This document shows, piece by piece, positions 38,017 through 54,295 of a DNA stretch of 64,000 bases. A model generated the notes under the pieces. That model searched no databases and was not told the origin of the DNA. It saw only the letters and a list, made by a program, of their open reading frames with translations. Source of the stretch: Nitrospirota bacterium. GTDB taxonomy: Bacteria > Nitrospirota > UBA9217. Positions within the stretch are counted from its first letter, which is position 1, and each line of letters opens with the position of its first letter. Position numbers and translations under genes: made by a program. The stretch is taken from assembly GCA_963705595.1 (NCBI GenBank), contig CAVPKD010000002.1, positions 261,962-325,961 of the forward strand. The letters are read 5' to 3'.

Positions 38017-38927
38017 CTGGATACACAGCTGAAATTCATAGACGTCCTGCGGCAACGCCACGGGAGGCACTTCAGGCAACAGGACCTCGGCAAATTTGAA
38101 TACTCGTACAAGGCCGAGATCACCAGCATAGTACGGCTCACAAAAATGGAAAGCCTCTACCGGATCCGGATCATCGATCATGAGGAACGAAAACATTTCT
38201 CCTTCCAGCCAGGCCAGTTCGTCATGCTTGAGGTTCCCGGGCATCGGTGAGGCCCCCTTCTCTATCGCTTCCTCCCCAAGCAGCCGCGATGACATCGAAC
38301 TCTGCATCAGGAAGGTCGGGAACCTCACCTCGTTCCTGGCAAGAGCGACCCGCGGAATGCGCGTCGGTATCCGCGGACCCTTCGGGACCAGCTTCCCCAT
38401 GGAGACCATGCACGGCCAGAACATCCTTCTGATCGCGGGAGGACTAGGACTGGCGCCCTTGCGGTCTCCGATCGCCTATGTGCAGGAGAACCGGAGCACG
38501 TTCCATAATGTGGACATCATCTACGGAGCAAAGTCGGCCTCTCAGCTTCTCTTTACGTTCCAGTACGACATGTGGCGAAGGGACGATATCGGCTTGAGCA
38601 TCATCGTAGAAAGGTCCGATCCTTCATGGAAAGGACCGGTGGGAATGATAACCGACGTCCTCGACCCCCTGCTCTCCGAGCGAGGAGAGTCTTTTGCCAG
38701 GAATACCTTTGCAATCGTGTGCGGCCCGCCGGTCATGTTCAAGTTCATCTGCAACCATGCTGACCGAGATCGGCATTCCCATGCAGAAGATGTTCGTCTC
38801 CCTAGAGCGCCGCATGCACTGCGGCATGGGCAAGTGCTGCCGCTGCAACGTAGGCTCGACTTATACCTGCCTCTCGGGGCCCGTATTCGACTACTGGACC
38901 GTGATGAACCTGAAAGAGGCAATCTGA
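38017..38927 (+). CDS. hydG: Sulfhydrogenase gamma subunit (FAD/NAD(P)-binding, 2Fe-2S). Indels near 38240 and 38760. The start codon is unclear.
   Basis: …[27 protein letters not shown]…[27 protein letters not shown]…[14 protein letters not shown]…GIRGPFG…[15 protein letters not shown]… and C-terminal …[17 protein letters not shown]. Confidence 0.75.
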
Positions 38928-39742
38928 TGGATGACAAGCATACAGAGACCCGGACCTATCTCGGCGTGCCACTTGCCCGTCCGAGCGTCGCGTTCTTTGA
39001 GCTCTCGTCGTGCGAAGGCTGCCAGCTTCAGATCGTGAACAACGAGTCCACGCTCATGGACTTCCTCTCCCTTGTCAACGTGGTGAACTTCCGGGAGGCC
39101 ATGACCGAAAAGACCGATCACTATGACATCGCCTTCGTGGAAGGGAGCGTTACCCGCGCCGACGAGATCGAGCGGCTCAGATCGATCCGGCAGAACGCCA
39201 ATGTCCTCGTGGCCTTCGGCTCCTGCGCGTGTTTTGGCGGCGTGAACCAGCTGAAGAACCGCTTCAAGGATCCCGACTGGGTACGAAGGCAGGTCTACGG
39301 GAACCACCCGATCGATACCAATGAGACCGCCAGGCCGCTCGAGGATTTTGTCAAAGTCGATCTCAGGATCTACGGTTGTCCGGTGAAAAAGGAGGAGGTC
39401 GAGAAGATCGTCACTCATATCGCTGTCGGGAGAACCATCGTACAGCCGAAGTACCCTGTCTGCATGGAATGCAAGGCGAACGAAAATATCTGCCTCTTCG
39501 ATGTCGGAGAGCCCTGCCTGGGGCCGGTCACCCGCGGAGGTTGTGATTCCTGGTGCCCGAACAACCGGTTCGGCTGTTGGGGCTGCCGGGGGCCGGCCGA
39601 TGACGCCAATGTAGGTCAGATGCAGACCATCATGAAAGAGCATGGTTTTTCCGAAGAGACCATACTTGACCGGTTTGAATGTTTCGGCGGGTTCGCGACA
39701 TACGCGGAAGAACTGCGGAAGAACCTCGAAGCAAAAGAATAA
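38927..39742 (+). CDS. hydD: Sulfhydrogenase delta (small) subunit.
   Basis: Intact 271 aa. FELSSCEGCQLQIVN…GSCACFGG…GCP… (NuoB/HycG-like small-subunit Cys ligands). Confidence 0.85.
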   Translation: MDDKHTETRTYLGVPLARPSVAFFELSSCEGCQLQIVNNESTLMDFLSLVNVVNFREAMTEKTDHYDIAFVEGSVTRADEIERLRSIRQNANVLVAFGSCACFGGVNQLKNRFKDPDWVRRQVYGNHPIDTNETARPLEDFVKVDLRIYGCPVKKEEVEKIVTHIAVGRTIVQPKYPVCMECKANENICLFDVGEPCLGPVTRGGCDSWCPNNRFGCWGCRGPADDANVGQMQTIMKEHGFSEETILDRFECFGGFATYAEELRKNLEAKE

Positions 39743-39855
39743 AACATATCTCTCGCAGAGACGCAGAGGACGCTAAGAAAAAAGATCTTAGATTAAAAAA
39801 TCTAGGTTCAGAGCATCACGAGCTTTGCGTCTTTGCGCGAAACCAAAGAGAAAAC

Positions 39856-41130
39856 ATGAAATCAACACGTACCATCGATATACATCATATAACAAGAGTT
39901 GAAGGCCACGGAAACATCAAGATAACTATACAGGACGGACAACTCACGGAGGCCCGGTGGGAAGTGGTTGAAACCCCGCGCTTCTTCGAGGCGATGCTCG
40001 TTGGGAAAAAATGGGAGAACGCACCCTGGATCAGCGGCAGGATATGCGGTATTTGCTCCATCGGGCATACTCTCGCGAGCATTCGCGCGGTAGAGAACGC
40101 CTTCGGTATCGTTCCGAGCGAACAGACCCGGAAACTGCGACTGCTCCTCAAGCACATGGAAACCCTCCAGAGCCATATCCTCCATCTGTATTTTCTCTCG
40201 GCTCCCGACTTTCTGAACACCGGGAGCATCTTTCCCCTCATCGAGTCGCATCCGGACGTGGTCCTGCGGGCCGCGAGGATCAAACAGCTCGCAAACGACC
40301 TCTGCGACTGTGTTGGCGGACGCCGTATACATCCAACGCGGACGGTCGTCGGCGGTTTCACCATGTTGCCCGATAAAAAGGAACTGGTGAAGTTCAAGAT
40401 CCGATTGCAGGAAGTCATGAACGATCTCTGGAAGACGGCGGAACTGTTCCGGACATTCGCCATCCCCGATTTTGCGAGGGAGACCGAGTTCGTTTCACTC
40501 AAGGGAGACGGAAGCTATCCGTTCATCGGCGGCGACCTCGTCTCGACCGACGGCGTGACGAGAAAAGAGCATGATTACAAACTCATGACAAACGAGTATC
40601 TGGTGGAACAATCGACCTCAAAGTGGAGCCGCCTCTCCCGGGAATCGTTCGCCGTGGGCGCCCTTGCCCGCATCAACAATAATTTTTATTTTCTGCATCC
40701 CGCGGCAAAAGAGATTTTACTGAGTTATGGGCTCAGACCCGTATGCCACAACCCTTATATGAACAATATCGCCCAGCTGGTGGAATGCGTGCATGTTGTC
40801 GCCGAGTCCATGGGTTTCATCGACGAGCTTCTTGGGATGGTCTGGAAAGAACCCCGCCAGGCGGCGATTCCCCGAAGCGGCATCGGAGTAGGCGCCGTGG
40901 AAGTGCCACGGGGCATTCTGTACCACAGTTACGGGTTCGACGGGAACGGCAAGATCATCCAATGCGACTGCGTGATCCCCACGAGCCAGAACCACGCCAA
41001 TATCCAGCACGACCTCTGGACGCTTGCGGCGAAGTGCGCATCACAGGGGAAACCGGACCGTGAAATCGAACTCCTTGCCCAGATGCTGGTCCGGTCATAC
41101 GACCCGTGCATCTCCTGCTCGGTCCACTGA
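39856..41130 (+). CDS. hydA: NiFe-hydrogenase large (alpha) subunit, group 3b.
   Basis: Intact 424 aa. N-terminal Ni-binding RICGICSIGH and C-terminal DPCISCSVH, followed immediately by the stop. Confidence 0.9.
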   Translation: MKSTRTIDIHHITRVEGHGNIKITIQDGQLTEARWEVVETPRFFEAMLVGKKWENAPWISGRICGICSIGHTLASIRAVENAFGIVPSEQTRKLRLLLKHMETLQSHILHLYFLSAPDFLNTGSIFPLIESHPDVVLRAARIKQLANDLCDCVGGRRIHPTRTVVGGFTMLPDKKELVKFKIRLQEVMNDLWKTAELFRTFAIPDFARETEFVSLKGDGSYPFIGGDLVSTDGVTRKEHDYKLMTNEYLVEQSTSKWSRLSRESFAVGALARINNNFYFLHPAAKEILLSYGLRPVCHNPYMNNIAQLVECVHVVAESMGFIDELLGMVWKEPRQAAIPRSGIGVGAVEVPRGILYHSYGFDGNGKIIQCDCVIPTSQNHANIQHDLWTLAAKCASQGKPDREIELLAQMLVRSYDPCISCSVH

Positions 41131-41517
41131 TCGGAGCTCGGTGAATTACGGCTATGGTTCTTCGGACCATTTGCGGTTCAATCGGAGGATCAACAGGAGC
41201 AGGAGGAAGATAAGCGGTATCCACACGAAGGGATTGTATGGCTGACTCTCTCCGGTCATGGCAGTTACGCACCGGGACACAGTAACCGTTTGCTCGGTCT
41301 CAGGAGCTTCACTCGTGCTAGGTATCGCCGTTCATGCCGGCACACTAGCAAGCGCTTGTGGTTTATGCTGCTTCGTTTTCCTGGCGATCCAGATCGGCTC
41401 CCCGTCCTTGTCGTGGAGATGATACTCATTATACTAAAGATCCCATTCTTCACACCGTTTCAAATATTTGTGTCCTCCACATCCGTCTGTCTTTCCCGTG
41501 TCAGAAAAGACGGTCGC

Positions 41518-41943
41518 GGGGCAAATCAGAATAACAAGAATGACAGGCAGTTTTTTGATGCGGCGCGTGCATCGCACTGCAGATATACTATCAATCCGAT
41601 GGATGCTCATCAACAGCCCGTCTTTTTTCTTGACAACACCGGTTCGTGATGTTACATTATTTTTCGACTCACAATATATTATATAGGTTGTGCATTGCGG
41701 GGCTGTAGCTCAGCTGGGAGAGCACAAGGCGGGGCAAATCAGAATAACAAGAATGACAGGCAGTTTTTTGATGCGGCGCGTGCATCGCACTGCAGATATA
41801 CTATCAATCCGATGGATGCTCATCAACAGCCCGTCTTTTTTCTTGACAACACCGGTTCGTGATGTTACATTATTTTTCGACTCACAATATATTATATAGG
41901 TTGTGCATTGCGGGGCTGTAGCTCAGCTGGGAGAGCACAAGGC
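41518..41943 (+). repeat. Perfect tandem direct repeat, 2 x 213 bp. Each unit is the tRNA-Ala upstream/promoter region (about 181 bp) plus tRNA positions 1-32. The second unit is part of the functional tRNA.
   Basis: Unit A 41518..41730 and unit B 41731..41943 are identical by eye. The called ORFs 41468..41686 and 41690..41899 give identical peptides from the two units. Confidence 0.85.
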
Positions 41944-41987
41944 TGGCAGTCTTGGGGTCAGGGGTTCGATCCCCCTCAGCTCCACCA
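41912..41987 (+). tRNA. tRNA-Ala (anticodon GGC).
   Basis: GGGGCTGTAGCTCAGCTGGGAGAGCACAAGGCTGGCAGTCTTGGGGTCAGGGGTTCGATCCCCCTCAGCTCCACCA. It has a 7-bp acceptor stem with G3:U70, D-loop AGCTGGGA, anticodon loop CTGGCAG, T-loop TTCGATC and an encoded CCA. Confidence 0.9.
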
Positions 41988-42031: not shown

Positions 42032-42310
42032 GAATGTGCTAAATTTGTGCTAATTCTGTCCAAGACCTCCACACCACTCCGCAAACTGTCAGGGCAATGA
42101 TGCGAATACCACGGCGTCATTTCGAGCGCAGAGATAAACCCTAGCTGAGATTCCTCGCTAATTACTACACAGGCGTTTCCAGTTGATCGCTGATCGACGA
42201 CAGCCGTCTGCCACTATGCCCGTTCTCTGTTGACAGTCATGAACCTTTCGGATACACTTTTGCCAGACAGTTCAGACACTGTGCCTCGCACATGCCATGG
42301 AGGATGCACC

Positions 42311-42508
42311 ATGAACGGGAAAATCATCGGTATCGTTATACTCGCTGCGGGAATCGTATTGCTAATCTTGGGATTCAATGAAATTGGGACATTCGGCTCC
42401 CGTGCGGGCAGGATGCTCGGTGCGGGCGTATCGAATAAGGTTCTGTTCTACTTCAGTGCAGGGGCCATATGCACAATCTTCGGCTTCATACAGATGCGGA
42501 AAAAATAA
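42311..42508 (+). CDS. Small two-TM membrane protein (DUF3185-like).
   Basis: MNGKIIGIVILAAGIVLLILGFNEIGTFGSRAGRMLGAGVSNKVLFYFSAGAICTIFGFIQMRKK. Confidence 0.4.
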   Translation: MNGKIIGIVILAAGIVLLILGFNEIGTFGSRAGRMLGAGVSNKVLFYFSAGAICTIFGFIQMRKK

Positions 42509-42876: not shown

Positions 42877-42921
42877 CTGGCAGTCTTGGGGTCAGGGGTT
42901 CGATCCCCCTCAGCTCCACCA
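42877..42921 (+). repeat. tRNA-Ala 3'-half copy 2 (positions 32-76, 45/45 identical). An att-type direct repeat.
   Basis: ctggcagtcttggggtcaggggttcgatccccctcagctccacca. Confidence 0.85.
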
Positions 42922-42931
42922 AGAATTCAAA

Positions 42932-42962
42932 GGGTTAGTCTAAATGACTAGCCCTTTTTTGT
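42932..42962 (+). terminator. Terminator hairpin homologous to the tRNA-Ala terminator (GGGTTAGTC-taaat-GACTAGCCC + T6).
   Basis: Read directly. It carries stem substitutions relative to 41997..42031. Confidence 0.5.
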
Positions 42963-43052
42963 TGGAATGTGATAAGGGTGTGATAATTCTATCCAGGATC
43001 TCGACATCCATCCGCAAATTGTCAGGACCATGATGCGAATACCGTATATATT

Positions 43053-43292: not shown

Positions 43293-44010
43293 GGTCTGCC
43301 CTCCCTGACTTAGGATGGGAAAGAACCCATGTAACCGTTTTCGACTGTGAACCTCGAGATCAATATAATCTTACCCACACTTATTGCTGGCCTTTCATCT
43401 GAAGGGACGCTATGCCTGCCTTTTGAGAGAGAACCTTCGTATCTTCCGCATAATATGCGATAGTTTTATTAGGAATCTTCTTGAGGCATTTCTGTCCCCG
43501 AAGTAAGGTGAGTACTCGCATAATGTTCAGGTTTTTTTCTCTGGAAAAGCACTTAGGATACATATCACCTTCCATAATTTTTTTTCTCCGGCAGCCCAGC
43601 CGTCCCGTGTCTGGAACCCGTGAGCTTTGTGCCCCACATTGCGATGGTTTACTCTTTTCGGCGGATCAAGCGTGTCTATAACGACGATATATTTATATGT
43701 ATAACTAAATAGACACAAAAAAACTGATGCCGATTTTTAGATCAGAAAAAACCGGGTCAGATTTTGTTGGAAATAAGCGGTGGCAGTAAGCAGGCTGTTA
43801 ATACTTACATGTAAAATAGCAAATAATAGGTGCAAAGTAAAGTTCAATTTCGGGGTATTTTTAGGGTATTGTTGCAAAAAATCGAAATTATTTAAAAGGG
43901 CAAAACTCATAATAGACAAATTCAATATAGTACGGTCAATATTATGATGCAACGCGCAAAACGGGAAGCCAGACAGAATATCAAGGATTGTGTTTTTCTG
44001 CACTATCGAG

Positions 44011-44054
44011 CTGGCAGCCTTAGGGTCAGGGTTCGATTCCCATTAGCTCCACCA
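44011..44054 (+). repeat. tRNA-Ala 3'-half copy 3, degenerate (about 37/45 identical).
   Basis: ctggcagccttagggtcagggttcgattcccattagctccacca. Confidence 0.75.
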
Positions 44055-44424
44055 AGAATTCAAGAGGTCAGTTTACAAAGCTAACCCTTTTTCATTTGAC
44101 TGTGCTATATCTGTGATGTTTCTTTCCGAAACCTCTTTCCATTTCGCAAATATTCAGCGGTATTTTCATCCCCCCTGTACATTACCAGGGGGCCATTTTG
44201 CCCCACTAATACCGGCTTTTTTAAATTATCGGATATGTTTCAGTTAGCAATTATTAACAAGAATCGCATATTTCCACCTTGTTTAGTGCCGATAAAAATA
44301 GTATCATAATCATCCAATAATCTTGTATGAGACAGAGTAAAGAAAGAAACATTAAGCCGGGGGAAAGATAAGAACTCTGAAGGTAAACGGGGAAATAATC
44401 AAAAGCGGAAGGGATCCTGCGATC

Positions 44425-44886
44425 ATGAAAGGTACAACATATCTATTTCTTGGACTTCTAGCGGCTACTTTAGGAGCTGCCCAGCCAGTTCATGCTACGC
44501 TCGGTGAATCTGCCGATTCAGTCATGACGGATCGTAAGGCGCTCTCAGCGGTGCAAGCCGTTACAACGACACGTAATGCCTACACGGTTCAGGAGATCTC
44601 GTCTGATTCGGTTGCTGTTCGGGAGTACATGTCGCCATCCGGGATGGTATTCGGCATCGCATGGAATGGCCTGACCCACCCAGATCTTACACTGCTTCTA
44701 GGATCTTATGCCGGCGAATACCAGAAATCCGTGAAACAGACTCCTCGCAAGCCGGGCCGCAGGTTCTCTCAAATAAAGACGAACCGAATCGTGGTGGAGA
44801 AATGGGGGCATATGCGAAACCTGCGCGGTCGCGCCTACGTACCATCCTTAATCCCACCCGGAGTGACTGTCGATGAAATCAAGTAA
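44425..44886 (+). CDS. Secreted DUF2844-like protein.
   Basis: Signal peptide MKGTTYLFLGLLAATLGAAQPVHA. The body …YTVQEISSDSVAVREYMSPSGMVFGIAWNGLTHPDL… resembles the small proteins that pair with DUF3443 lipoproteins in Burkholderiales. This is from memory and unverified. Confidence 0.45.
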   Translation: MKGTTYLFLGLLAATLGAAQPVHATLGESADSVMTDRKALSAVQAVTTTRNAYTVQEISSDSVAVREYMSPSGMVFGIAWNGLTHPDLTLLLGSYAGEYQKSVKQTPRKPGRRFSQIKTNRIVVEKWGHMRNLRGRAYVPSLIPPGVTVDEIK

Positions 44887-46087
44887 AATACCAATTCTTT
44901 TCCTGATCCTTGTTCTGGTAGCCGGTTGTGGCGGCGGTGGATCAGGCACACCCCCGCCGAAAGGCAGTGCCGCTCTTGCCAACAACGTGCTTCCCATCAC
45001 CGTGAATGGATCGCTCTGTTCGGCCAGCACCTCAGCTTCCTACCTCAATAAGCCCTGCGTCAGCGTTACGGTCTGCACTCCCGGCACGTCAACCTGCCAG
45101 ACGATCAACGACATCCTCTTGGATACGGGAAGCTTCGGGCTGCGGATATTCAAGCAGGCGCTGACGACTGTTTCCCTGACACAGATAATCAGCGGTTCCG
45201 GATCAGTTGCCGAGTGCGCGCAGTTCAATGGTGGCTTATCGGAATGGGGTCCTGTTGTGTTAGCGGACGTTACCCTAGGCAAAGAAACCGTCAATAATGT
45301 TCCTATCCAGATCATAGATTCCACCTTCGGCACTGTCCCCAGCGCCTGCGGAACCCCGGATGCAACGCCGTCAGCCGCGGGCTTTACCGGGATACTGGGG
45401 GTCGGCGTCTTTGTCCAGGATTGCGGTTCAGTCTGCGCAAACCAAGCAAACAATGGAATCTATTACTCCTGCAGCGGATCGACATGCACGGGCATAACAG
45501 TTCCCCTATCCAGTCAGGTCCAGAATCCGGTGGTGTTCCTTCCTCCGGATAATAACGGCGTGAGTGATAATAACGGTGTGATCGTGGAGCTTCCGACCGT
45601 TCCTTCGAATGGTTCGCAATCAGTTAATGGAATTCTTGTGCTCGGGATCAGTACAAAGACCAACAATGTACCTTCCGGAGTCACCGCATATAACACAGAC
45701 CCAATCGGTGAGATCACCACAAGTCTCAGTGGTACCTACAGTGGGATTATTGATAGCGGATCGAACGGGCTGTTTTTCACACCTCCCTCACCAGGCCTTC
45801 TCCCGAATTGCCCGTCTCCTGATTCTGCATGGTTCTGCCCCTTGTCGATAACGACCCTTTCCGCGAAAAACCAAGGGGCATCGGGATCGCCGAGCGGCGA
45901 CGTTTTCTTCCAGATAGGCAACTTCATGAGCCTAACAAAGTCACCTAACAACGTCTTCTCCAACATTGGCGGGTCATCACCGGGCCTATTCGATTGGGGA
46001 CTTCCGTTTTACTTTGGACGAAACATCTGTGTGGGAATTGAAGGAAAGGCGTCCAGCATCGGCACCGGACCTTACTTTGCCTATTAA
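44873..46087 (+). CDS. Lipoprotein with a pepsin-like (bilobal aspartic protease, DUF3443-like) fold.
   Basis: Lipobox LVLVAGCGGG. Two aspartic-protease-like motifs at a pepsin-like spacing: INDILLDTGSFGLRIF (compare FDTGSSNLWV) and GIIDSGSNGLFF (compare VDTGTSLL). The start overlaps the preceding gene. Confidence 0.5.
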   Translation: MKSSKIPILFLILVLVAGCGGGGSGTPPPKGSAALANNVLPITVNGSLCSASTSASYLNKPCVSVTVCTPGTSTCQTINDILLDTGSFGLRIFKQALTTVSLTQIISGSGSVAECAQFNGGLSEWGPVVLADVTLGKETVNNVPIQIIDSTFGTVPSACGTPDATPSAAGFTGILGVGVFVQDCGSVCANQANNGIYYSCSGSTCTGITVPLSSQVQNPVVFLPPDNNGVSDNNGVIVELPTVPSNGSQSVNGILVLGISTKTNNVPSGVTAYNTDPIGEITTSLSGTYSGIIDSGSNGLFFTPPSPGLLPNCPSPDSAWFCPLSITTLSAKNQGASGSPSGDVFFQIGNFMSLTKSPNNVFSNIGGSSPGLFDWGLPFYFGRNICVGIEGKASSIGTGPYFAY

Positions 46088-46329: not shown

Positions 46330-46842
46330 ATGAAATTTTCATACAGCATAATTCGCTTGGTCATTTTAGCGCTCATCCTGGTCCTGCCAGGCTGCACATT
46401 CACGAAACTGCTGACAACCCGGTTAGTGAAGCCAACCTTCACCTATAAGGGCTTCGAGCTGGTCGATGCCTCGCAAAGCAGCTTAATCGTGAACTTTCTG
46501 TTCTCCGCGCATAACCCGAATAAAGCAGGATTGAAGAACATAACCTGCTCGTATGAGCTTTTTGTGGAAGGAAATAAAATTCTGACAGGAAATGACGTTC
46601 CTTTGGCGCTTAACCCGAACGGCGACACGGAGATCAAGGTTCCTGCAACGATCGCTTATTCGGACCTCTTCCCCGTTCTGGGGTCTGTCGTACAACGGAT
46701 TTTATCAGGTCAGAAAACAATACCTATCACTATAAATGCCGTCTTTTCCGGTAAACCTGCGACCTATAGCGAAGCAGGAAAAGAAGAAGCGATTTCCTTC
46801 GAGATGAAATTGATCAAGACCGCCGACATTCCCTTACCGTAA
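46330..46842 (+). CDS. LEA14-like / WHy-domain lipoprotein.
   Basis: Lipobox LVLPGCTF. Then KPTFTYKGFELVD…SLIVNFLFSAHNPNKAGLKNITCSYELFVEGNKILTG…, typical of LEA_2/WHy. Confidence 0.5.
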   Translation: MKFSYSIIRLVILALILVLPGCTFTKLLTTRLVKPTFTYKGFELVDASQSSLIVNFLFSAHNPNKAGLKNITCSYELFVEGNKILTGNDVPLALNPNGDTEIKVPATIAYSDLFPVLGSVVQRILSGQKTIPITINAVFSGKPATYSEAGKEEAISFEMKLIKTADIPLP

Positions 46843-47162: not shown

Positions 47163-47996
47163 ATGATGACCAAAACGGGATGGTTCATTATTGCTTTTGT
47201 GTCCATAATATTATTTCACCTGAGTCTATCGCAAGCAGAAGAACCCGATCTGTCCACGGTTCAGACGCAAAAGGAAGACAACGATATAAACAAAAAACCT
47301 CCGGACCGCGTGGTTAAGCTAGACAAGGAGTATTTTACCGGATAGTGGACGGACACAAAGAACATTCTTACTTCCCCAGCTCGACGGGAGACAAAGGATT
47401 GGATAAAAGCATCTGCCATCTTTGGTATATCAATAGGGTTGTATACACAGGATGGTAAAATTCAGACGTGGGTACAGAAAAATAAGAATAACACCAATTC
47501 TCATCTTGCTGATGATGCCTCAACTACATTACGTTATGCGATACCGGTCCTGGGAGGACTTGGCCTATACGGCTACATCGCCGAAGACGAAAGAGCCAAA
47601 AGAACCTTCTTGCTGAGTGCCGAGAGCGTCATCATTACCGGCGTTTTTGTTCAAACTCTTAAACACTCAACAGGCCGTCATCGGCCTAATACTGGTGATC
47701 ATTATGATACATGGTCCGGCCCCACCATGAAAGGCTCATATCTGTCGTTCCCTTCTGGTGATGCCTCGACAGCCTTTGCCATAGCATCCGTTGTAGCTTC
47801 TGAATATGATAATATTGTGGTACCTACCCTGGCATACACAGCCGCATCGCTCATAGCTCTTGAACGAGTATACAACAACGCGCATTGGTCTTCCGATGTT
47901 TTTGTGGGTTCCGCGATAGGATATTTTACCGGAAAAGCGATCGTAGCTTCGCATAGGAACGTTTGCGAGAGCAACACCTATCGGTTGTTCCTCTGA
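47163..47996 (+). pseudogene. PAP2-family phosphatase paralogue with an in-frame TAG at 47343..47345 and substituted catalytic motifs (PSGD instead of PSGH).
   Basis: ORFs 47163..47345 (signal peptide) and 47439..47996 are in the same frame. The latter has KHSTGRHRP, SFPSGDAS and ERVYNNAHWSSDV (the KxxxxxxRP / PSGH / SRxxxxxHxxxD pattern with H to D and S to E). Confidence 0.5.
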
Positions 47997-48440
47997 TAGA
48001 CGCAAAGGGCGTTGGGTTACTAGTGACTTATAGGTATTAATCATCCGGTCCTTCGCATAATTCCCGCCCGCCTTCCCGCACTGGTGCTCGTGGTCACCTG
48101 GCTGAGGTTCATGTGCAGAATTCAACTAATATCCGTTAGAGTTTCAATTCGTCGTAACCCATATACTTGTGGGTGTTCACGAGAGGGATCAGGATTTGAG
48201 TGAAGAGATGAAGATCGATTGAATCATTCAGTATCTGATCCTTCCCGTGCCTCACGAAGTTTCCATTCTTAGCAACTCATCAATTTTCAACCCGGATTTA
48301 TTAGCATATACCCTTAAAATACCCATTGGAAAATATTGACAAGTCATAATATCTGTGCTTGTATCTAAGTAGTTCTCGATAAAGCCAAACCCTTCGCAAG
48401 AGGGGGACGGAAAGCGACGGGTCTTAAGAGACAAAGATGG

Positions 48441-48490
48441 CCGAGCTGCCGAGGGATGATTCCTTTGGTTAGCTCGGCCTTTTGTTTTGT
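48441..48490 (+). terminator. Strong hairpin (GGCCGAGCT…AGCTCGGCC, 9-bp perfect stem) followed by TTTTGTTTTG. An orphan intrinsic terminator in an island 3 intergenic region.
   Basis: Read directly. No annotated plus-strand gene ends within 440 nt upstream. Confidence 0.45.
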
Positions 48491-48770: not shown

Positions 48771-49346
48771 ATGTTTTTGAATCGATTGAGGCTACGTATG
48801 GAATCATCTACAGAAAACATAACAATTAAAATCCCGGTCGAAGTGGGACAGATCAGTTCCGCGGGAATAGAGAGGACGAAGAATCTCGTACGGGCAGCTC
48901 TAATCGCGGCCGTGGCGCTCGCTTCCGTTTACGCCTCCAAAGTGCCCGATGCGGCGGCAGGTTCATTCTCCACGGTCATCCGGGTGAACGCCGTTGTCCT
49001 GGCACGAACGCAACTGAAGCCCCTTCGACAGCCGGCGATGCTTGTCATAACGGAGACCGACATTCAGCGGGGTTACGTTGAAGTCAGCGGCGCCTCGATC
49101 TTCGAGATCTGGAGCAACGATCCGGCCGGATGTGTTCTCACCTTCGAGTCAAGCGATTTTCCCTACCGCGAAGCGGCTGTCAGAGTGATGGGCAGAGAAA
49201 TTATTATATATCCGACGGGCGGCATGATCCTTATGCCGGTCAGAGGAAGACAGCAGATCGCTCTGGACTACCGGTTTATCCTTACTACCGAAGCACAGCC
49301 CGGCACCTACGCATGGCCCCTCTCCGTTTCTGTTAATCCGCGGTGA
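48771..49346 (+). CDS. Hypothetical membrane-anchored periplasmic protein (191 aa).
   Basis: RBS gagagga 4 nt upstream. TM/signal anchor LVRAALIAAVALASVYA. No recognisable family. Confidence 0.35.
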   Translation: MFLNRLRLRMESSTENITIKIPVEVGQISSAGIERTKNLVRAALIAAVALASVYASKVPDAAAGSFSTVIRVNAVVLARTQLKPLRQPAMLVITETDIQRGYVEVSGASIFEIWSNDPAGCVLTFESSDFPYREAAVRVMGREIIIYPTGGMILMPVRGRQQIALDYRFILTTEAQPGTYAWPLSVSVNPR

Positions 49347-49788: not shown

Positions 49789-49822
49789 CTGGTTGTCTTG
49801 GGGTCAGGGGTTCGATTCCCAC
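49789..49822 (+). repeat. tRNA-Ala 3'-half copy 4, partial (positions about 32-63, lacking the acceptor 3' strand).
   Basis: ctggttgtcttggggtcaggggttcgattccc, then diverges. Confidence 0.65.
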
Positions 49823-50480: not shown

Positions 50481-52685
50481 TTAGCCTTTCTTGTCTAACA
50501 TTTCTCTTATCTTGGTGAGGAGCTCATGGGGTGTAACTGGCTTTGTAACGAAATCCGCCTCTTCGTCTAAAATATCTTTTCGCTGAATAATATCTGCCGT
50601 ATAGCCGCTGGTAAACAATATTTTAACATCGGGCTGTATCTTCTTTATTGCAATACTGGCTTCTTTGCCGCTTTTCTTAGGCATTACTACATCGAGCATA
50701 ACGAGTTGTATCGTGTCTTTATTCGCTATAAACTTATTTATGCCGTCCTCTCCATCTACTGCTTCTATGACTTTATAACCAAATTCCTCAAGCACGGCCT
50801 TCGAAAGAGCCCTAACCTCTTTATTATCCTCTGTAACCAGTATGGTCTCATTACCACCCTTGGGAGTAATAGCCACTGCGGCTTTTGGCTCTTCACTTTT
50901 TGCTTTAACCAAAGGGAGGTATATTTTGAATGTCGTGCCCATCCCCGGCTCGCTGTATTCCGTGATGTGACCGTTGTGCTGCTTGATTATTCCATATACT
51001 ATCGAAAGCCCAAGACCTGTCCCCTTCCCAAACTCCTTGGTCGTAAAAAAAGGCTCAAATATCTTTTGTCTGGTTTGTTCATCCATGCCCACACCGCTAT
51101 CGGTCACCGTTAACAGGACATACAGACCAGGTTTCTCCAGATCGTACGTTTTTGCATAGTTCGCATCCAAGTATTTGGTTTCTGTACTGATGGACAGTAG
51201 CCCGCCATTAGGCATGGCATCACGCGCATTGGTGCACAAGTTCATCAAGACCTGTTCTATTTGGCCGGGGTCTACCATTACCGTCACGTTCTTATCGACA
51301 AGTTGTGTCTTTAGTTCGACATCCTCACCAATAACCCTGTGCAGAAGTTTCTCCGTTCCCTTGATAAGCTCATTAAGATCTATCTGTTTCGGGCTGATTA
51401 CCTGTTTTCTGCTGAATGTAAGGAGCTGACGGGTCAGATCGGCTGACTTCTCTGCTATGCTCAGTATCTGTGTCGCGAACGACTTTAATGAGCTGTCATT
51501 CTCTACCTTAAAGCTCAAAAGGGTTGCGTAGCCGATTATTGCCGTTAGCATATTATTAAAATCATGCGCAATACCGCCTGCAAGCTGACCCACTGCCTCC
51601 AATTTTTGTGCTTGGTGGAGTTGTGCCTCGAGTTTGCTTTTTTCTTCTTGAACCTTTCTCTCATGTGTGAGGTCGTGCATAGTCATCAATATACTTATAG
51701 GCTGTTCTTGTTTGTCGCGGACTATTTTAACGGTGATCTCAATTGGTCGTCCGGCTGGATTATCAGGATTATCTACCTCCATGATAATGAACGCGTCACG
51801 TTTTTCCTCCTGTGCCTGGCATGCGGGGCAGAGGACCATTTCGCCATAGGGATGAATGATCTCTGCAATATGGCGTCCAACAGCGGTTTCTGGAGTTCTC
51901 CCTGTCATTGTATAGAATGATTTGTTGGCTCGCATTAAACGTCGATTGAGATCGAGCAGGTAGATAACATCCTGAGATGCATCCATTGCAGCCCTCCACT
52001 CCGTCGCAGCTTGCTCTACGGCTCTCTCAATTCGTTTGCGTTCGGTTATGTCAGTGGCGACCCCAGTCGTCCCTATCAGTTCATTTCGCTCGTTTCTAAC
52101 AGGATAGTACCATATTTCAAATACGATTCCGTCTATATTGGTCACTGTGGTGAACGCCTCACCCGCTAATGCACGACGGACTCCCTCGAGCACCGAAGGT
52201 GCGTCGCGGTAAACTTCGAAGACCGACCGGCCTACGACCTCGCCGGGTTTGAGGCCCAGCGCTAACAGTCCTCTCCCCTCAGAAAGCGTAAACACTCCCC
52301 CCCGATCCAGTGCGAAAAGCACCACCGGCGTATTTTCCATGACGGTACGCAGACGCGACTCGCTTTTCCGCAGTTCCAGCTCCGCACGTTTGCGCTCCGC
52401 GATTTCCTGCTGAAACCGCTCATTGATTTTTTTTAGTTCGGCGGTATGTTTTATAAAATAAATAACTATGGGCGCAACGATCAAGGGGATAAACAAAGCA
52501 TCAAGCGCGCCTATTATCAGTAATTTTGGTGAAAATTTTCCATACCAGATGTAACTCTGGATGGTATTCAAGAATGCCGTGAACAGTTCAGAGACCACGA
52601 CAGAAAGCCAGATAAAATGCCAGGGATTGATTCTTTTCTGCTTAGCAAGATTTTTTTCGGTCATGTTGGGCATTTCCTTCCGCAT
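50481..52685 (-). CDS. Hybrid sensor histidine kinase / response regulator (TM - PAS/PAC x2 - HisKA - HATPase - REC).
   Basis: Intact 734 aa. H-box IAHDFNNMLTAI. N/G-boxes NLCTNARDAMP, DSGVGMD, GTGLGLSIV. REC VMLDVVMPKKSG. The real start is probably MPNMTEK or MTEK. Confidence 0.85.
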   Translation of the reverse strand: MRKEMPNMTEKNLAKQKRINPWHFIWLSVVVSELFTAFLNTIQSYIWYGKFSPKLLIIGALDALFIPLIVAPIVIYFIKHTAELKKINERFQQEIAERKRAELELRKSESRLRTVMENTPVVLFALDRGGVFTLSEGRGLLALGLKPGEVVGRSVFEVYRDAPSVLEGVRRALAGEAFTTVTNIDGIVFEIWYYPVRNERNELIGTTGVATDITERKRIERAVEQAATEWRAAMDASQDVIYLLDLNRRLMRANKSFYTMTGRTPETAVGRHIAEIIHPYGEMVLCPACQAQEEKRDAFIIMEVDNPDNPAGRPIEITVKIVRDKQEQPISILMTMHDLTHERKVQEEKSKLEAQLHQAQKLEAVGQLAGGIAHDFNNMLTAIIGYATLLSFKVENDSSLKSFATQILSIAEKSADLTRQLLTFSRKQVISPKQIDLNELIKGTEKLLHRVIGEDVELKTQLVDKNVTVMVDPGQIEQVLMNLCTNARDAMPNGGLLSISTETKYLDANYAKTYDLEKPGLYVLLTVTDSGVGMDEQTRQKIFEPFFTTKEFGKGTGLGLSIVYGIIKQHNGHITEYSEPGMGTTFKIYLPLVKAKSEEPKAAVAITPKGGNETILVTEDNKEVRALSKAVLEEFGYKVIEAVDGEDGINKFIANKDTIQLVMLDVVMPKKSGKEASIAIKKIQPDVKILFTSGYTADIIQRKDILDEEADFVTKPVTPHELLTKIREMLDKKG

Positions 52686-53051
52686 GGCATAAATTTGCTT
52701 GGTACCATATACTCGATTTTAAGCAGATCAATTATTAACGATCTCCTTAGATAATATTCGCGGTAATTTAGCGCTATAATATTAGCTATTATATTAGCTA
52801 TTTAATTGCTGCATGTCAAGCATACAATGTAGTATATGGCATTACCAAATCTCACGCCAACTTGATTAAAATAAGACATCTTTCGATGTTGCAGAAAGGG
52901 ACTTCATGGCAAGGGCATGCGCAACTGTCGAATTTCGCTGTTTTCCGTGTCGAGATCCCTCCTGAAATCTCTATTTCGGTTCAGTACCGGCCGTCGTCAC
53001 CGGTTACATGAATCTTCTTTACCATCGTTCTTTCCATCTCCTCCATTGACA

Positions 53052-53852
53052 ATGGTTTTAGAAAAGCATAGACTGACGTCTATTATTTTCGACGTATTTT
53101 CGAAGCTCACGCATTCGGTAACAGTGTACCTATTAATTTATTTTTTTATCCCAGGGATCATTTTTGGAATGCATATCTGTATGAATGTGAAAAAGATCGG
53201 CATCAGCTTCCTGCTAGTTGTCCTGCTTGTCCTATGCAGCTACTATTTTATAGACGCAAGAACCGCCTTGTTAGTCAATAGAGTATGGATGTCCCATGCT
53301 CGTCTGGCTGTCTTTTCCGCTAACATTCCCGACTTCTTATTTTCCATAGTTTGTCTCATTACTGTCATTGCATGGACAGCATATTTCTACCTCACTCATA
53401 AAGGCATTTACGACACACATACGCGGTTCTTTCAGCTCGTTGCCATTACGATCCCGCTAACATTCTTTCTGAAATCCTCCCTGAAGCATGTGGTTGGCAG
53501 AATCGACACAAGATTCTGGTTACATCATCCCGGTTTTAAAGAGTTCCACTGGTTTCACGGAGGGGGAAATTACACCAGTTTTCCTTCGGGGCATATGGCT
53601 GTTTTTATGGCTCTCGCTATCGCCCTGTGGATGTTCTATCCTCGCTATCAGTCCGCATATATTAGCTTCTTATCGGTTCTGGCGCTGGCTCTCATTATTA
53701 CCAATTATCATTTCATCAGTGATGTTGTTGCCGGTGCTTACCTCGGTTTCTTTGTTAATTATTTTACCCATCTTGGCTTAACATTCTTCTCAAATAGAAG
53801 GATGAGAACTGGTGAATATGATCAGAAGAATGAGAGTCGACAATTATTATAA
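53052..53852 (+). CDS. PAP2-family membrane phosphatase. The ORF is open from 52917, so the start is uncertain.
   Basis: Multi-TM. SFPSGHMAVF and HFISDVVAGAYLGF (PSGH and SRxxxxxHxxxD-like motifs, both intact). Confidence 0.55.
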   Translation: MVLEKHRLTSIIFDVFSKLTHSVTVYLLIYFFIPGIIFGMHICMNVKKIGISFLLVVLLVLCSYYFIDARTALLVNRVWMSHARLAVFSANIPDFLFSIVCLITVIAWTAYFYLTHKGIYDTHTRFFQLVAITIPLTFFLKSSLKHVVGRIDTRFWLHHPGFKEFHWFHGGGNYTSFPSGHMAVFMALAIALWMFYPRYQSAYISFLSVLALALIITNYHFISDVVAGAYLGFFVNYFTHLGLTFFSNRRMRTGEYDQKNESRQLL

Positions 53853-54182: not shown

Positions 54183-54224
54183 CTGGCAGTCTTGGGGTCA
54201 GGAGTTCTATTCGCCTCGACTCCA
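54183..54224 (+). repeat. tRNA-Ala 3'-half copy 5, degenerate (outermost att-type repeat).
   Basis: ctggcagtcttggggtcaggagttctattcgcctcgactcca. It is preceded by a sigma70-like TTGACA-16-TAGAAT at 54151..54178. Confidence 0.65.
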
Positions 54225-54295
54225 GTAAGCAATGAAAAGGGTTGGCCAACAGGTCAGCCCTTTATTTTTGCTACGACATCACGAAGGAGCCCCAC

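What the first reader, a model, noticed from the sequence alone, without database searches (positions are those of the whole stretch)
44873..46087. Island-borne lipoprotein with two pepsin-like D[TS]G motifs, a putative bacterial bilobal aspartic protease, paired with a small secreted DUF2844-like protein
The 404-aa lipoprotein (lipobox LVLVAGCGGG) contains hhhDTGSxxL at residue about 84 (INDILLDTGSFGLRIF). A second hhDSGSxxLhh follows about 205 residues later (GIIDSGSNGLFF). This matches the two catalytic-Asp motifs and the spacing of pepsin-family (A1) enzymes. Bacterial A1-like proteases are rare. Its start overlaps a 153-aa secreted protein (DUF2844-like), and a LEA14/WHy lipoprotein follows. 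All three sit in an island at a tRNA gene.
Basis: inference. Interest (0 to 1): 0.55.

Follow-up and report, generated by a model that had tools for sequence, protein, structure and literature searches.

The report
Pepsin-fold bacterial lipoprotein with coupled partner
This gene encodes a membrane-anchored bacterial protein that is predicted to fold like the stomach enzyme pepsin and keeps both catalytic aspartates. It belongs to a very large, uncharacterised family that almost always sits next to the same small secreted partner gene.

Summary
ORF 44873-46087 (+) encodes a 404-aa lipoprotein with DTGS at residue 84 and DSGS at residue 294. It is a full-length member of Pfam DUF3443 (E 2e-119). 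Both aspartates are kept in 143/146 and 145/147 diverse relatives (42-63% identity).

An AlphaFold2 model has a confident N-lobe and a weak C-lobe. It matches only pepsin-family structures in the PDB (408 hits, best E 1.6e-8).

No sequence method places the protein in family A1, so it is a separate bacterial pepsin-fold family. That family is not rare: it has about 2,300 clusters at 50% identity.

The upstream DUF2844 gene is a real partner:
- It lies directly upstream in 68 of 80 loci from four phyla, and in two Burkholderiaceae plasmids.
- A 14-nt overlap holds the downstream start codon in 64 of those 68 pairs.
- The two proteins co-diverge (r 0.69).
- One natural fusion protein exists.
- The partner is basic (pI about 9.3) and the protease domain acidic (pI about 4).

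I infer that the partner is a prosegment-like regulator supplied in trans. This is untested.

The tRNA island is supported by a GC dip and four tRNA-fragment repeats. The LEA_2 gene is a neighbour only in close relatives.

The parts
44425..44886 (+). DUF2844 partner gene (153 aa). It has a type-I signal peptide (…PVHA|TLGES) and a basic mature protein of about 130 aa (pI 9.84).
   Evidence: Pfam PF11005, E 3.7e-43. The AF2 model has pLDDT 80 with the layout helix, 4 strands, long helix, 3 strands. It lies directly upstream of DUF3443 in 68 of 80 loci.
44873..44886 (+). 14-nt overlap of the two genes. The ATG of the DUF3443 gene lies inside the D-E-I-K-stop codons of the DUF2844 gene, which suggests translational coupling.
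   Evidence: The sequence is. The same 14-nt overlap carries ATG in 59 and GTG in 5 of 68 paired loci.
44873..46087 (+). DUF3443 lipoprotein gene (404 aa). It is a predicted bilobal pepsin-fold aspartic peptidase.
   Evidence: Pfam PF11925, E 2e-119, covering residues 36-404. The AF2 model gives 408 Foldseek PDB hits at E<=0.001; all 50 listed are pepsin-family enzymes.
44915..44929 (+). Lipobox L-V-A-G-C (residues 15-19). Cys19 is the predicted lipidated N-terminus, followed by a Gly/Pro-rich linker up to about residue 37.
   Evidence: The translation is. Cys19 aligns with Cys in 118 of 131 non-gap representatives. The linker has pLDDT below 50.
45122..45133 (+). N-lobe catalytic motif D84-T-G-S. 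It aligns with pepsin D32-T-G-S.
   Evidence: D84 is kept in 143/146, T85 in 139, G86 in 141 and S87 in 142. Lobe-wise hhalign pairs it with pepsin D32.
45224..45226 (+). F118, the candidate flap aromatic residue (pepsin Tyr75 position). It sits in F/Y-G-D-G-S…W125-G126.
   Evidence: The column is always aromatic: F in 94 and Y in 52 of 147. Lobe-wise hhalign aligns it with pepsin Y75, but that alignment is not statistically significant.
45392..45400 (+). N-lobe hydrophobic-hydrophobic-Gly (psi-loop) motif I174-L175-G176. It aligns with pepsin I120-L121-G122.
   Evidence: G176 is kept in 150/150, I174 in 134 and L175 in 139. It aligns to pepsin FDGILGLAY.
45752..45763 (+). C-lobe catalytic motif D294-S-G-S. 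It corresponds to pepsin D215-T-G-T.
   Evidence: D294 is kept in 145/147 and G296 in 146. Position 295 is S in 98 and T in 49. Position 297 is S in 131 and T in 14.
45995..46009 (+). C-lobe W375-G376-L-P-F motif, followed by G382-R383. It resembles pepsin W299-I-L-G-D-V-F-I-R307, the second psi-loop region.
   Evidence: G376 is kept in 143/143, P378 in 138, F379 in 135 and R383 in 120. It aligns to pepsin LWILGDVFIRQYY, a weak alignment.
46330..46842 (+). LEA_2 (WHy-like) lipoprotein gene. It is a lineage-specific neighbour, not part of the conserved two-gene module.
   Evidence: Pfam PF03168, E 9.6e-9. It is adjacent in close relatives L084-L088. It gave 0 hits in 80 more distant loci.
41912..41987 (+). 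tRNA-Ala(GGC), at the left edge of the low-GC stretch.
   Evidence: ARAGORN and Rfam RF00005. The same tRNA lies upstream of the pair in the syntenic relative L088.
42877..42964 (+). First repeated copy of the tRNA-Ala 3' half plus its downstream hairpin (att-like remnant).
   Evidence: Families D2/D3 in the repeat finder. The 20-mer matches exactly, against 0.03 matches expected by chance.
44010..44097 (+). Second, degenerate copy of the tRNA 3' half. It forms the left border of the segment that holds the DUF2844/DUF3443 pair.
   Evidence: Families D2/D3/D4, 67-76% identity.
49789..49820 (+). Third copy of the tRNA 3' half. It forms the right border of the segment that holds the pair.
   Evidence: Family D3, 91% identity. 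The 20-mer matches with one mismatch.
54183..54270 (+). Fourth copy of the tRNA 3' half. It coincides with the end of the low-GC stretch.
   Evidence: Families D2/D3, 74-88% identity. GC returns to 0.53 or higher after about 54 kb.

Best explanation
The 404-aa protein is a cell-envelope lipoprotein. Its globular part (residues about 38-404) is a bilobal, pepsin-fold aspartic peptidase of a bacterial family of its own (Pfam DUF3443). Each lobe supplies one catalytic aspartate, D84 in DTGS and D294 in DSGS, backed by a hydrophobic-hydrophobic-Gly psi-loop motif. An aromatic flap residue (F118) probably closes over the cleft. About six disulfides and the lipid anchor place it outside the cytoplasm, in the periplasm or on the outer membrane or cell surface.

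It is made together with the small basic secreted protein DUF2844, which is encoded immediately upstream and is translationally coupled. I infer that the two form a stoichiometric complex. The basic partner would play the role that the basic prosegment plays for acidic pepsin: a folding helper and/or inhibitor supplied in trans and released or degraded on activation, perhaps on acidification.

Shown: the gene structure, family membership, motif conservation, the fold match, the conserved gene pairing and overlap, co-divergence, one fusion protein, and the charge complementarity. Inferred: catalytic activity, physical binding, the inhibitory or prosegment role, the pH trigger, and the substrates.
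For: Family and motifs:
- DUF3443 matches at E 2e-119.
- D84 is kept in 143/146 and D294 in 145/147 representatives at 42-63% identity.
- The +3 Ser/Thr is kept in both motifs.
- ILG176 and WGLPF379 are nearly invariant, and position 118 is always aromatic.
- Motif spacings resemble pepsin's. Asp to hhG is 92 and 82 residues here; by my recollection it is 90 and 87 in pepsin.

Fold:
- The AF2 model has pTM 0.66, with N-lobe pLDDT of 85-93.
- Foldseek against the PDB gave 408 hits at E<=0.001. All 50 listed are A1 enzymes (endothiapepsin 1.6e-8, probability 1.0, TM 0.43-0.55).

Weak sequence links to aspartic peptidase families, among 94 members:
- Asp_protease_2 matched 18 members (best 1e-6).
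- gag-asp_proteas matched 7.
- PE-PGRS_C matched 3 (best 2e-6).

Location:
- The lipobox Cys is conserved in 118/131, and there are 12 conserved Cys.
- Many relatives carry Big_2 or other Ig-like spacer domains.

Partner:
- DUF2844 lies directly upstream in 68 of 80 loci from Nitrospirota, Desulfobacterota, Myxococcota and Bdellovibrionota. It does so too in Burkholderia and Paraburkholderia plasmids.
- The 14-nt overlap carries ATG or GTG in 64 of 68 pairs.
- Pairwise identities co-vary, r 0.69, with 0 of 999 Mantel permutations reaching that value.
- The fusion protein P0122 has DUF2844 N-terminal to DUF3443.
- Median pI is 9.3 for the partner and 4.05 for the protease domain.
Against: - The C-lobe of the model is weak (pLDDT 44-74), and the rmsd to pepsins is 7-9 A. 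I could not measure the distance between the two aspartates in the model.
- No sequence method links the family significantly to A1. PF00026 matched 0 of 94 members. The family profile found nothing in PDB sequences. hhalign gave 1.2% probability for the whole protein and 6.5% and 0.5% for the lobes.
- In this particular protein the flap residue is Phe, not Tyr. Phe75 weakens rhizopuspepsin activity (PMC2761423).
- PE_PGRS16 has a pepsin fold and DTG/DSG motifs, yet showed no activity in vitro (PMC6819658).
- The DUF2844 model has no significant structural relative. The best hit was E 5e-3, and BLIP-like/DUF2874 hits reached only probability 0.6-0.75. Nothing shows directly that it binds or inhibits.
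- Three of about 77 evaluable loci lack a DUF2844 gene nearby but keep both motifs.
- There is only one fusion example.
- No paper in the library mentions either family.
Confidence: 0.62

Rival explanations
1. DUF3443 is an active aspartic peptidase, but DUF2844 is not a regulator. It is instead the enzyme's dedicated substrate or cargo, matured by cleavage, or a non-inhibitory accessory such as a sorting or anchoring factor.
For: The pairing, coupling and co-divergence fit any tight functional link equally well. The mature N-terminus of DUF2844 (A24, L26, G27 invariant) is unusually conserved, so it could be a recognition or cleavage site. Weak fold hits include LolA/RseB-like lipoprotein-binding proteins, at probability below 0.3.
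Against: DUF2844 is a compact, well-predicted globular domain (pLDDT 80). It is conserved along its whole length, unlike a typical precursor. In the fusion protein it sits N-terminal to the protease, where prosegments sit. The opposite net charges mirror the pepsinogen arrangement.
Confidence: 0.2
2. The protein has a pepsin fold but is not an enzyme. It would be a binding or adhesin-type surface lipoprotein, like the inactive pepsin-fold proteins (xylanase inhibitor TAXI-I, pregnancy-associated glycoproteins; recalled from general knowledge).
For: Ig-like spacer domains (Big_2, CARDB, fn3) in many relatives suggest surface display. PE_PGRS16 shows that a bacterial pepsin fold with DTG/DSG can lack detectable activity (PMC6819658). 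The flap residue here is Phe.
Against: Inactive pepsin-fold proteins have typically lost catalytic residues. Here both Asp, both Gly and both +3 Ser/Thr are kept in about 97-99% of about 150 representatives down to 42% identity. That is hard to explain without catalysis.
Confidence: 0.1
3. It is a true member of peptidase family A1, like the shewasins, possibly acquired from a eukaryote.
For: All 50 listed structural matches are A1 enzymes. The motif order and spacing are pepsin-like.
Against: PF00026 and the TAXi models matched none of 94 members, even at E<=1. hhalign against pepsins gave 1.2% probability. The family is large and spread over at least five bacterial phyla. The known bacterial A1 homologues lack signal peptides (PMC2761423), whereas this protein is a lipoprotein.
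Confidence: 0.03

Closest known systems
Pepsin family A1 (Pfam PF00026), including the bacterial homologues shewasin A/D
   Same: Both have a predicted bilobal fold with one D-T/S-G-S/T per lobe. A hydrophobic-hydrophobic-Gly motif follows about 80-90 residues after each Asp. There is an aromatic residue at the flap position, a very acidic catalytic domain and disulfides (defining features from PMC2761423).
   Different: There is no significant sequence similarity. There is no N-terminal prosegment in the same chain: the domain starts about 18 residues after the lipidated Cys. It has a lipoprotein anchor, whereas the shewasin-type bacterial A1 homologues lack signal peptides and are predicted to be intracellular (PMC2761423; PMC4814920). 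The Asp-Asp spacing is 200-217 residues; by my recollection it is 183 in pepsin. It has 12 conserved Cys; by my recollection pepsin has 6.
Mycobacterial PecA / PE_PGRS16 C-terminal aspartic peptidase domain (Pfam PF20729; PDB 4EHC)
   Same: Both are bacterial, surface-located, bilobal pepsin-fold domains with DTG followed by DSG. PecA is a proven active surface protease (PMC6819658; PMC13578627). Three of 94 DUF3443 members match PF20729 (best E 2.3e-6).
   Different: PecA is exported by type VII secretion through an N-terminal PE domain and occurs only in mycobacteria. DUF3443 proteins are Sec/Lol lipoproteins of Gram-negative phyla with a separate DUF2844 partner. The window protein itself does not match PF20729.
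Single-lobe bacterial retropepsin-like peptidases (Pfam PF13650 Asp_protease_2; e.g. the secreted retropepsin-like enzymes of Pseudomonas aeruginosa, PMC11957051)
   Same: This is the best sequence-level link. The N-lobe (residues 80-176) matches PF13650 at E 0.0038, and 18 of 94 members match (best 1e-6).
   Different: Those enzymes have one lobe and must dimerise. DUF3443 has two different lobes in one chain. The window protein's score (18.3 bits) is below the Pfam cut-off of 24.3.
Pepsinogen prosegment and protein inhibitors of pepsins (analogy for DUF2844 only; recalled from general knowledge)
   Same: A basic polypeptide is associated with a very acidic aspartic peptidase. In the one fusion protein it sits N-terminal to the peptidase.
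   Different: DUF2844 is a separate, independently secreted, folded domain of about 130 aa. It has no detectable sequence or significant structural similarity to any known inhibitor or prosegment. Binding is not shown.

Membership tests
Pfam DUF3443 (PF11925) | A full-length match to the family HMM above the gathering score | tested here: met
   E 2e-119 and 399 bits against a cut-off of 25. Residues 36-404 cover profile positions 3-367 of 367.
Pfam DUF2844 (PF11005), for the upstream gene | A full-length match to the family HMM above the gathering score | tested here: met
   E 3.7e-43 and 147 bits against a cut-off of 22.4. Profile positions 2-130 of 130 are covered.
Peptidase family A1 (pepsin) | Significant sequence similarity to the family (PF00026 HMM or profile) | tested here: not met
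   PF00026 matched 0 of 94 members at E<=1. The family profile found no aspartic peptidase among PDB sequences. hhalign against 31 pepsins gave 1.2% probability. That pepsin profile was narrow (Neff 1.6), so this negative result is not strong.
Peptidase family A1 (pepsin) | A bilobal beta fold with a psi-loop in each lobe | tested here: met
   Foldseek of the AF2 model against the PDB gave 408 hits at E<=0.001. All 50 listed are A1 enzymes, with the best at 1.6e-8 and TM 0.43-0.55. As a caveat, C-lobe pLDDT is only 44-74.
Peptidase family A1 (pepsin) | Two catalytic Asp, each in D-T/S-G-S/T, one per lobe (Asp32, Asp215) | tested here: met
   D84-T-G-S and D294-S-G-S are present. The Asp residues are kept in 143/146 and 145/147 representatives, and both motifs are present in 76 of 80 loci.
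Peptidase family A1 (pepsin) | Hydrophobic-hydrophobic-Gly motifs in both lobes | tested here: met
   I174-L175-G176 has G kept in 150/150, and W375-G376 has G kept in 143/143. Both stand at pepsin-like distances from the Asp. The N-lobe motif aligns to pepsin ILG122. The C-lobe register is uncertain by about 2 residues.
Peptidase family A1 (pepsin) | A flap tyrosine (Tyr75) | tested here: inconclusive
   Column 118 is F in 94 and Y in 52 of 147, and the window protein has Phe. The equivalence to Tyr75 rests on a non-significant hhalign alignment and on the motif F/Y-G-D-G-S resembling Y-G-T-G-S.
Peptidase family A1 (pepsin) | An N-terminal inhibitory prosegment in the same polypeptide (zymogen) | tested here: not met
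   Only a low-complexity linker of about 18 residues lies between the lipidated Cys19 and the start of the domain.
Peptidase family A1 (pepsin) | Pepstatin-sensitive endopeptidase activity | not testable with these tools
   This needs the recombinant protein.
PE-PGRS_C aspartyl-peptidase-like domain (PF20729) | A match to the family HMM | tested here: not met
   The window protein has no match at E<=0.1. Three of 94 relatives match, with the best at E 2.3e-6.
Retropepsin-like Asp_protease_2 (PF13650) | A match above the gathering score, and a single-lobe architecture | tested here: not met
   The score is 18.3 bits against a cut-off of 24.3, for the N-lobe only. The protein has two lobes.
Bacterial lipoprotein | A signal peptide ending in a lipobox [LVI][ASTVI][GAS]C | tested here: met
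   The N-terminus reads MKSSK-IPILFLILV-LVAG-C19. The Cys is aligned in 118 of 131 representatives. No dedicated predictor was available.
tRNA-linked genomic island | A position next to a tRNA gene, direct repeats of the tRNA 3' end, deviant composition, and an integrase | tested here: inconclusive
   The tRNA-Ala gene, four partial tRNA 3' copies and a GC dip from 0.55 to 0.43-0.49 are met. No integrase or transposase was found among the ORFs scanned. The arrangement is shared with a relative at 82% identity. It is therefore an old remnant rather than a recent insertion.

The most novel reading that the evidence does not exclude
DUF2844 plus DUF3443 would be a 'split zymogen'. A bacterial pepsin-fold peptidase would have its prosegment-like inhibitor or folding helper encoded as a separate, co-translated, independently secreted basic protein, released by acidification or proteolysis at the cell surface. 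The family would be an old, purely bacterial lineage of two-lobed clan AA enzymes. The lobe duplication that created pepsin would then have happened, or happened independently, in bacteria.
Probability: 0.22. Interest if true: 0.75.

Novelty: new variant of a known kind. Interest (0 to 1): 0.56.

Why it matters
Two-lobed pepsin-type enzymes are regarded as essentially eukaryotic, with only a handful of bacterial cases: the cytoplasmic shewasins and the mycobacterial PecA. This finding suggests otherwise. A very large bacterial family is annotated everywhere only as 'DUF3443'. It has about 2,300 clusters at 50% identity and occurs in at least five phyla, often in several copies per genome. The evidence here indicates a secreted, lipid-anchored pepsin-fold peptidase with an intact catalytic dyad.

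It also assigns a second orphan family, DUF2844, as its near-obligate partner. If confirmed, two DUFs would gain a function. Diderm bacteria would gain a new class of envelope or surface proteases. There would be a new way of controlling an aspartic protease, through a regulator supplied in trans. The question raised by Rawlings and Bateman (2009), of when the pepsin lobe duplication arose, would also have a broad bacterial data set to work with.

Tried and rejected
- Sequence searches of the window protein and of a 94-member family profile against PDB sequences found no aspartic peptidase, only chance hits.
- hhalign of the family against 31 vertebrate pepsins, for the whole protein and for each lobe, gave probabilities of 0.5-11%. 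The alignments were colinear and sensible but not significant.
- A Foldseek PDB search with the DUF2844 model gave nothing at E<=1e-3. The DUF2844 profile against PDB sequences gave only chance hits.
- The PHROGs and PADLOC libraries gave no match for either protein or for the neighbours. A phage or known-defence reading is rejected.
- Literature searches for DUF3443, DUF2844 and PF11925 returned no papers. Broader searches found no description of this family.
- Clustering all ORFs from the 80 loci found no third conserved gene. The next real clusters occur in only 13-14 loci, and the larger ones are shadow ORFs inside the two genes.
- LEA_2 and PAP2 as conserved partners are rejected, with 0 and 1 hits in 80 loci.
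- The promoter and terminator scan around the operon was no better than shuffled sequence.
- I could not read model coordinates, so the Asp84-Asp294 distance was not measured.
Full report
**Observation**

The ORF at 44873-46087 (+) is present exactly as described. It is 404 aa long, starts with ATG, and begins with a typical lipoprotein signal peptide, MKSSKIPILFLILVLVAGC (Cys19). DTGS lies at residues 84-87 and DSGS at residues 294-297, which is 210 residues apart. Of 32 six-frame ORFs of at least 300 aa in the window, this is the only one with two D[TS]G[ST] motifs.

Its ATG lies inside the last codons (D-E-I-K-stop) of the 153-aa ORF 44425-44886, giving a 14-nt overlap. Pfam assigns the large protein to DUF3443 (E 2e-119, full length). 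It assigns the small protein to DUF2844 (E 3.7e-43) and ORF 46330-46842 to LEA_2 (E 9.6e-9). A tRNA-Ala(GGC) gene lies at 41912-41987.

**Family size and conservation**

The family is very large. A word-indexed search gave 4,298 hits among the 8,000 candidates it scored. An exhaustive HMMER search of representatives clustered at 50% identity gave 2,317 clusters at E<=1e-3.

The named sources are Nitrospirota/Thermodesulfovibrionales (the closest, so the window probably comes from that group), Geobacterales, Syntrophales, Anaeromyxobacter and Bdellovibrionota. Burkholderiaceae plasmids also carry it. Several genomes carry two or three copies.

I aligned the 150 best representatives, which are 42-63% identical to the query.
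- D84 is kept in 143 of 146 non-gap sequences, and D294 in 145 of 147.
- The flanking T/S, G and the +3 S/T are conserved to a similar degree.
- Other near-invariant positions are an always-aromatic residue at 118 (F 94, Y 52), W125-G126, I174-L175-G176 (G in 150/150) and W375-G376-L-P-F…G382-R383.
- Twelve cysteines are also conserved.
- Across the 80 genomic loci, 76 keep both motifs, spaced 200-217 residues apart with a mode of 204-205.

**Structure**

I built an AlphaFold2 model from 75 homologues. It has pLDDT 65 and pTM 0.66. The N-lobe (residues 60-180) is confident at 77-93. The C-lobe is weak at 44-74. The N-terminal linker is disordered.

Foldseek against the PDB returned 408 hits at E<=0.001. 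All 50 listed are pepsin-family (A1) enzymes: endothiapepsin (1.6e-8), rhizopuspepsin, Candida SAPs, plasmepsins, renin, BACE and chymosin. Probability was 1.00, TM-scores ranged from 0.36 to 0.55, and alignments spanned more than 400 columns, so both lobes are covered. The rmsd of 7-9 A reflects the poor C-lobe. I could not read the coordinates to measure the Asp-Asp distance.

**Relationship to known aspartic peptidase families by sequence**

The link is weak. The window protein's N-lobe matches the retropepsin-like model Asp_protease_2 below threshold (E 0.0038). Among 94 diverse members, the matches were as follows:
- Asp_protease_2: 18 members (best 1e-6).
- gag-asp_proteas: 7 members.
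- The mycobacterial PE-PGRS_C aspartyl-peptidase-like domain: 3 members (best 2.3e-6).
- The A1 model PF00026: none.

A family profile found nothing relevant among PDB sequences. To make a pepsin profile, I searched with the pig pepsin sequence recalled from memory. It proved 100% identical to PEPA_PIG. I aligned 31 real pepsins from that search.

hhalign of the two profiles gave only 1.2% probability. Lobe-by-lobe hhalign was also non-significant (6.5% and 0.5%), but the alignments were colinear and chemically sensible:
- D84 pairs with D32.
- F118-N-G-G pairs with Y75-G-T-G.
- F-T-G-I-L-G-V-G pairs with F-D-G-I-L-G-L-A.
- W375…R383 pairs with W299…R307.

According to Rawlings and Bateman, the catalytic-Asp motif and the hydrophobic-hydrophobic-Gly motif are the only sequence features shared by the two pepsin lobes, and together they form the psi-loops (PMC2761423). 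All of these features are present here. I therefore treat the protein as working like a pepsin while belonging to a family of its own within the same fold class. It is not a member of A1.

**The partner, DUF2844**

In 68 of 80 loci, a DUF2844 gene lies directly upstream on the same strand. The other 12 loci break down as follows:
- Three are cut at the contig end.
- Six have a displaced or degraded copy.
- Three have none.

The 14-nt overlap seen in the window recurs, with ATG (59) or GTG (5), in 64 of the 68 pairs. This argues for translational coupling, and so for production of the two proteins in a fixed ratio.

Pairwise identities of the two proteins across loci correlate (r 0.69), and none of 999 Mantel permutations reached that value. 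The pair also occurs in Burkholderia thailandensis and Paraburkholderia aromaticivorans plasmids at about 40% identity. There it sits next to an ISL3 transposase or an integrase, and RefSeq names both genes only by their DUF numbers.

One natural fusion protein exists, P0122 (685 aa). Its layout is signal peptide, DUF2844, a spacer of about 165 aa, a Pro/Thr linker, then DUF3443, with no second signal peptide. It was found in two assemblies. It was the only fusion among the 270 family members available to me.

DUF2844 proteins are otherwise always single-domain, of about 153-158 aa. The AF2 model (pLDDT 80) shows a helix, four strands, a long helix and three strands. It has no significant structural relative in the PDB. 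The best hit was E 5e-3. Weak hits include BLIP-like and DUF2874 periplasmic domains, at probability 0.6-0.75.

The mature partner is basic (median pI 9.3; 9.84 and net +6 in the window). The protease domain is very acidic (median pI 4.05; 4.24 and net -9 in the window, with only 10 Lys+Arg).

**Genomic context**

GC content falls from about 0.55 to 0.43-0.49 between about 41 and 54 kb. The 3' half of tRNA-Ala, together with its downstream hairpin, is repeated at 42877, 44010, 49789 and 54183. A 20-mer from it recurs far more often than chance (0.03 expected). The last repeat coincides with the return to normal GC.

The pair, the LEA_2 gene, a PAP2 gene and a hypothetical gene all lie in the segment between the repeats at 44010 and 49789. 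No integrase was found among the ORFs scanned.

A relative at 82% identity (L088) has the same order: hydrogenase, tRNA-Ala, small ORFs, DUF2844, DUF3443, LEA_2, and so on to the PAS histidine kinase. The region is therefore an old, decayed integration hotspot shared within the lineage, not a recent arrival. Other close relatives have different flanks, including IS elements.

LEA_2 is adjacent in four of the five close-relative gene contexts examined but in none of the 80 more distant loci. No third gene is conserved across the 80 loci.

**Mechanism**

The following points are shown: a lipoprotein with a pepsin-type fold prediction, an intact and strongly conserved catalytic dyad with its supporting motifs, conserved cysteines, and a conserved, coupled, co-diverging basic partner.

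The following points are inferred. After Sec export and lipidation, the acidic two-lobed domain hangs from the membrane on a flexible linker. In relatives it hangs on Ig-like spacer domains. It cleaves peptide bonds with water activated between D84 and D294, as pepsins do. Both motifs keep the +3 hydroxyl residue (S87 and S297, matching pepsin Ser35 and Thr218). The cytoplasmic bacterial A1 homologues have replaced Thr218 (PMC2761423). Together with the very low pI, this hints at an acidic or acid-tolerant working environment.

The separately secreted basic DUF2844 protein most likely binds the enzyme 1:1 as a folding helper or inhibitor, analogous to a prosegment. Its charge and its N-terminal position in the fusion protein fit this reading. 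Binding itself is untested. The substrates are unknown.

**Comparison with what is known, and novelty**

The closest functional parallel is mycobacterial PecA. It is a proven surface-located bilobal DTG/DSG protease, but it is exported by type VII secretion (PMC6819658; PMC13578627). The shewasins are true A1 members but are cytoplasmic (PMC2761423; PMC4814920). The secreted retropepsin-like enzymes of Pseudomonas have a single lobe (PMC11957051).

No paper in the searchable library mentions DUF3443, DUF2844 or PF11925, and the databases name these proteins only as DUFs. The gene itself is an ordinary member of a known but uncharacterised family. The family-level reading is the new element: a lipid-anchored pepsin-fold peptidase with a trans-encoded partner. 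I rate it as a new variant of a known kind, with moderate to good interest.

Noticed in passing
window 48375-48454 (+); L086 12215-12294, L087 5370-5449, L088 10673-10752: A c-di-GMP-I-GGC variant riboswitch (RF03167, 74.6 bits, E 1.7e-16) lies about 320 nt upstream of the hypothetical ORF 48771-49346 (191 aa, no Pfam, PHROGs or PADLOC match). The same riboswitch and a 186-aa ORF are conserved in three related contigs. L086 and L087 also carry a classical c-di-GMP-I riboswitch ahead of a multihaem cytochrome gene next to the pair.
   Followed up: partly
window 41516-41941: There is a perfect 213-nt tandem duplication (41516-41728 and 41729-41941). It contains the region upstream of tRNA-Ala and the first 30 nt of the tRNA, so a truncated 5' tRNA copy precedes the real gene. 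I did not resolve whether this is a real duplication or an assembly artefact.
   Followed up: partly
window 42877-42964, 44010-44127, 49789-49820, 54183-54270: There are four partial copies of the tRNA-Ala 3' half. The first two extend about 100 nt into similar downstream sequence. This suggests repeated insertions of related elements at this tRNA, yet no integrase was found among the ORFs scanned.
   Followed up: partly
P0122 (L089 5001-7058; L090 911-2968): This is a natural fusion protein with the layout signal peptide, DUF2844, a spacer of about 165 aa, a Pro/Thr linker, then DUF3443. It has no lipobox and no separate DUF2844 gene upstream. In L089 it lies next to a restriction-modification pair (RE_AlwI and a D12 methyltransferase).
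   Followed up: partly
window 44873-46087 compared with L086 8001-9722 and L088 8001-9725: The syntenic orthologues (78-82% identity) are 573-574 aa and carry a Big_2 domain between the lipobox and the protease domain. The window protein lacks it. Other relatives carry CARDB, fn3, ASH/HYDIN-like or InlB-B-repeat spacer domains, up to 1,793 aa in total.
   Followed up: partly
window 47439-47996 (+), 52917-53852 (+), 50481-52685 (-): Two PAP2-family phosphatase genes and a PAS/HisKA/HATPase/receiver hybrid histidine kinase lie in the same low-GC stretch. The kinase is conserved at the far end of the block in relatives L086-L088.
   Followed up: no
window 38180-41130 (+): Just upstream of the tRNA lies a 520-aa ORF with both an NAD_binding_1 domain and an Oxidored_q6 (hydrogenase small-subunit-like) domain. 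In relative L088 these are two separate genes (259 and 271 aa). A NiFeSe hydrogenase large-subunit gene follows. This could be a gene fusion or a missed frameshift or stop.
   Followed up: no
window 44873-46087, residues 8-55: There is a sub-threshold NCBIfam match (E 7.7e-4, 19.8 bits against a cut-off of 37) to 'invert_tail', a putative lipoprotein C-terminal anchoring domain. It covers only the signal peptide and linker and probably reflects composition.
   Followed up: no
window 42230-42508 (+): A small DUF3185 membrane protein (92 aa, E 1.9e-12) is encoded in the first inter-repeat segment after the tRNA.
   Followed up: no
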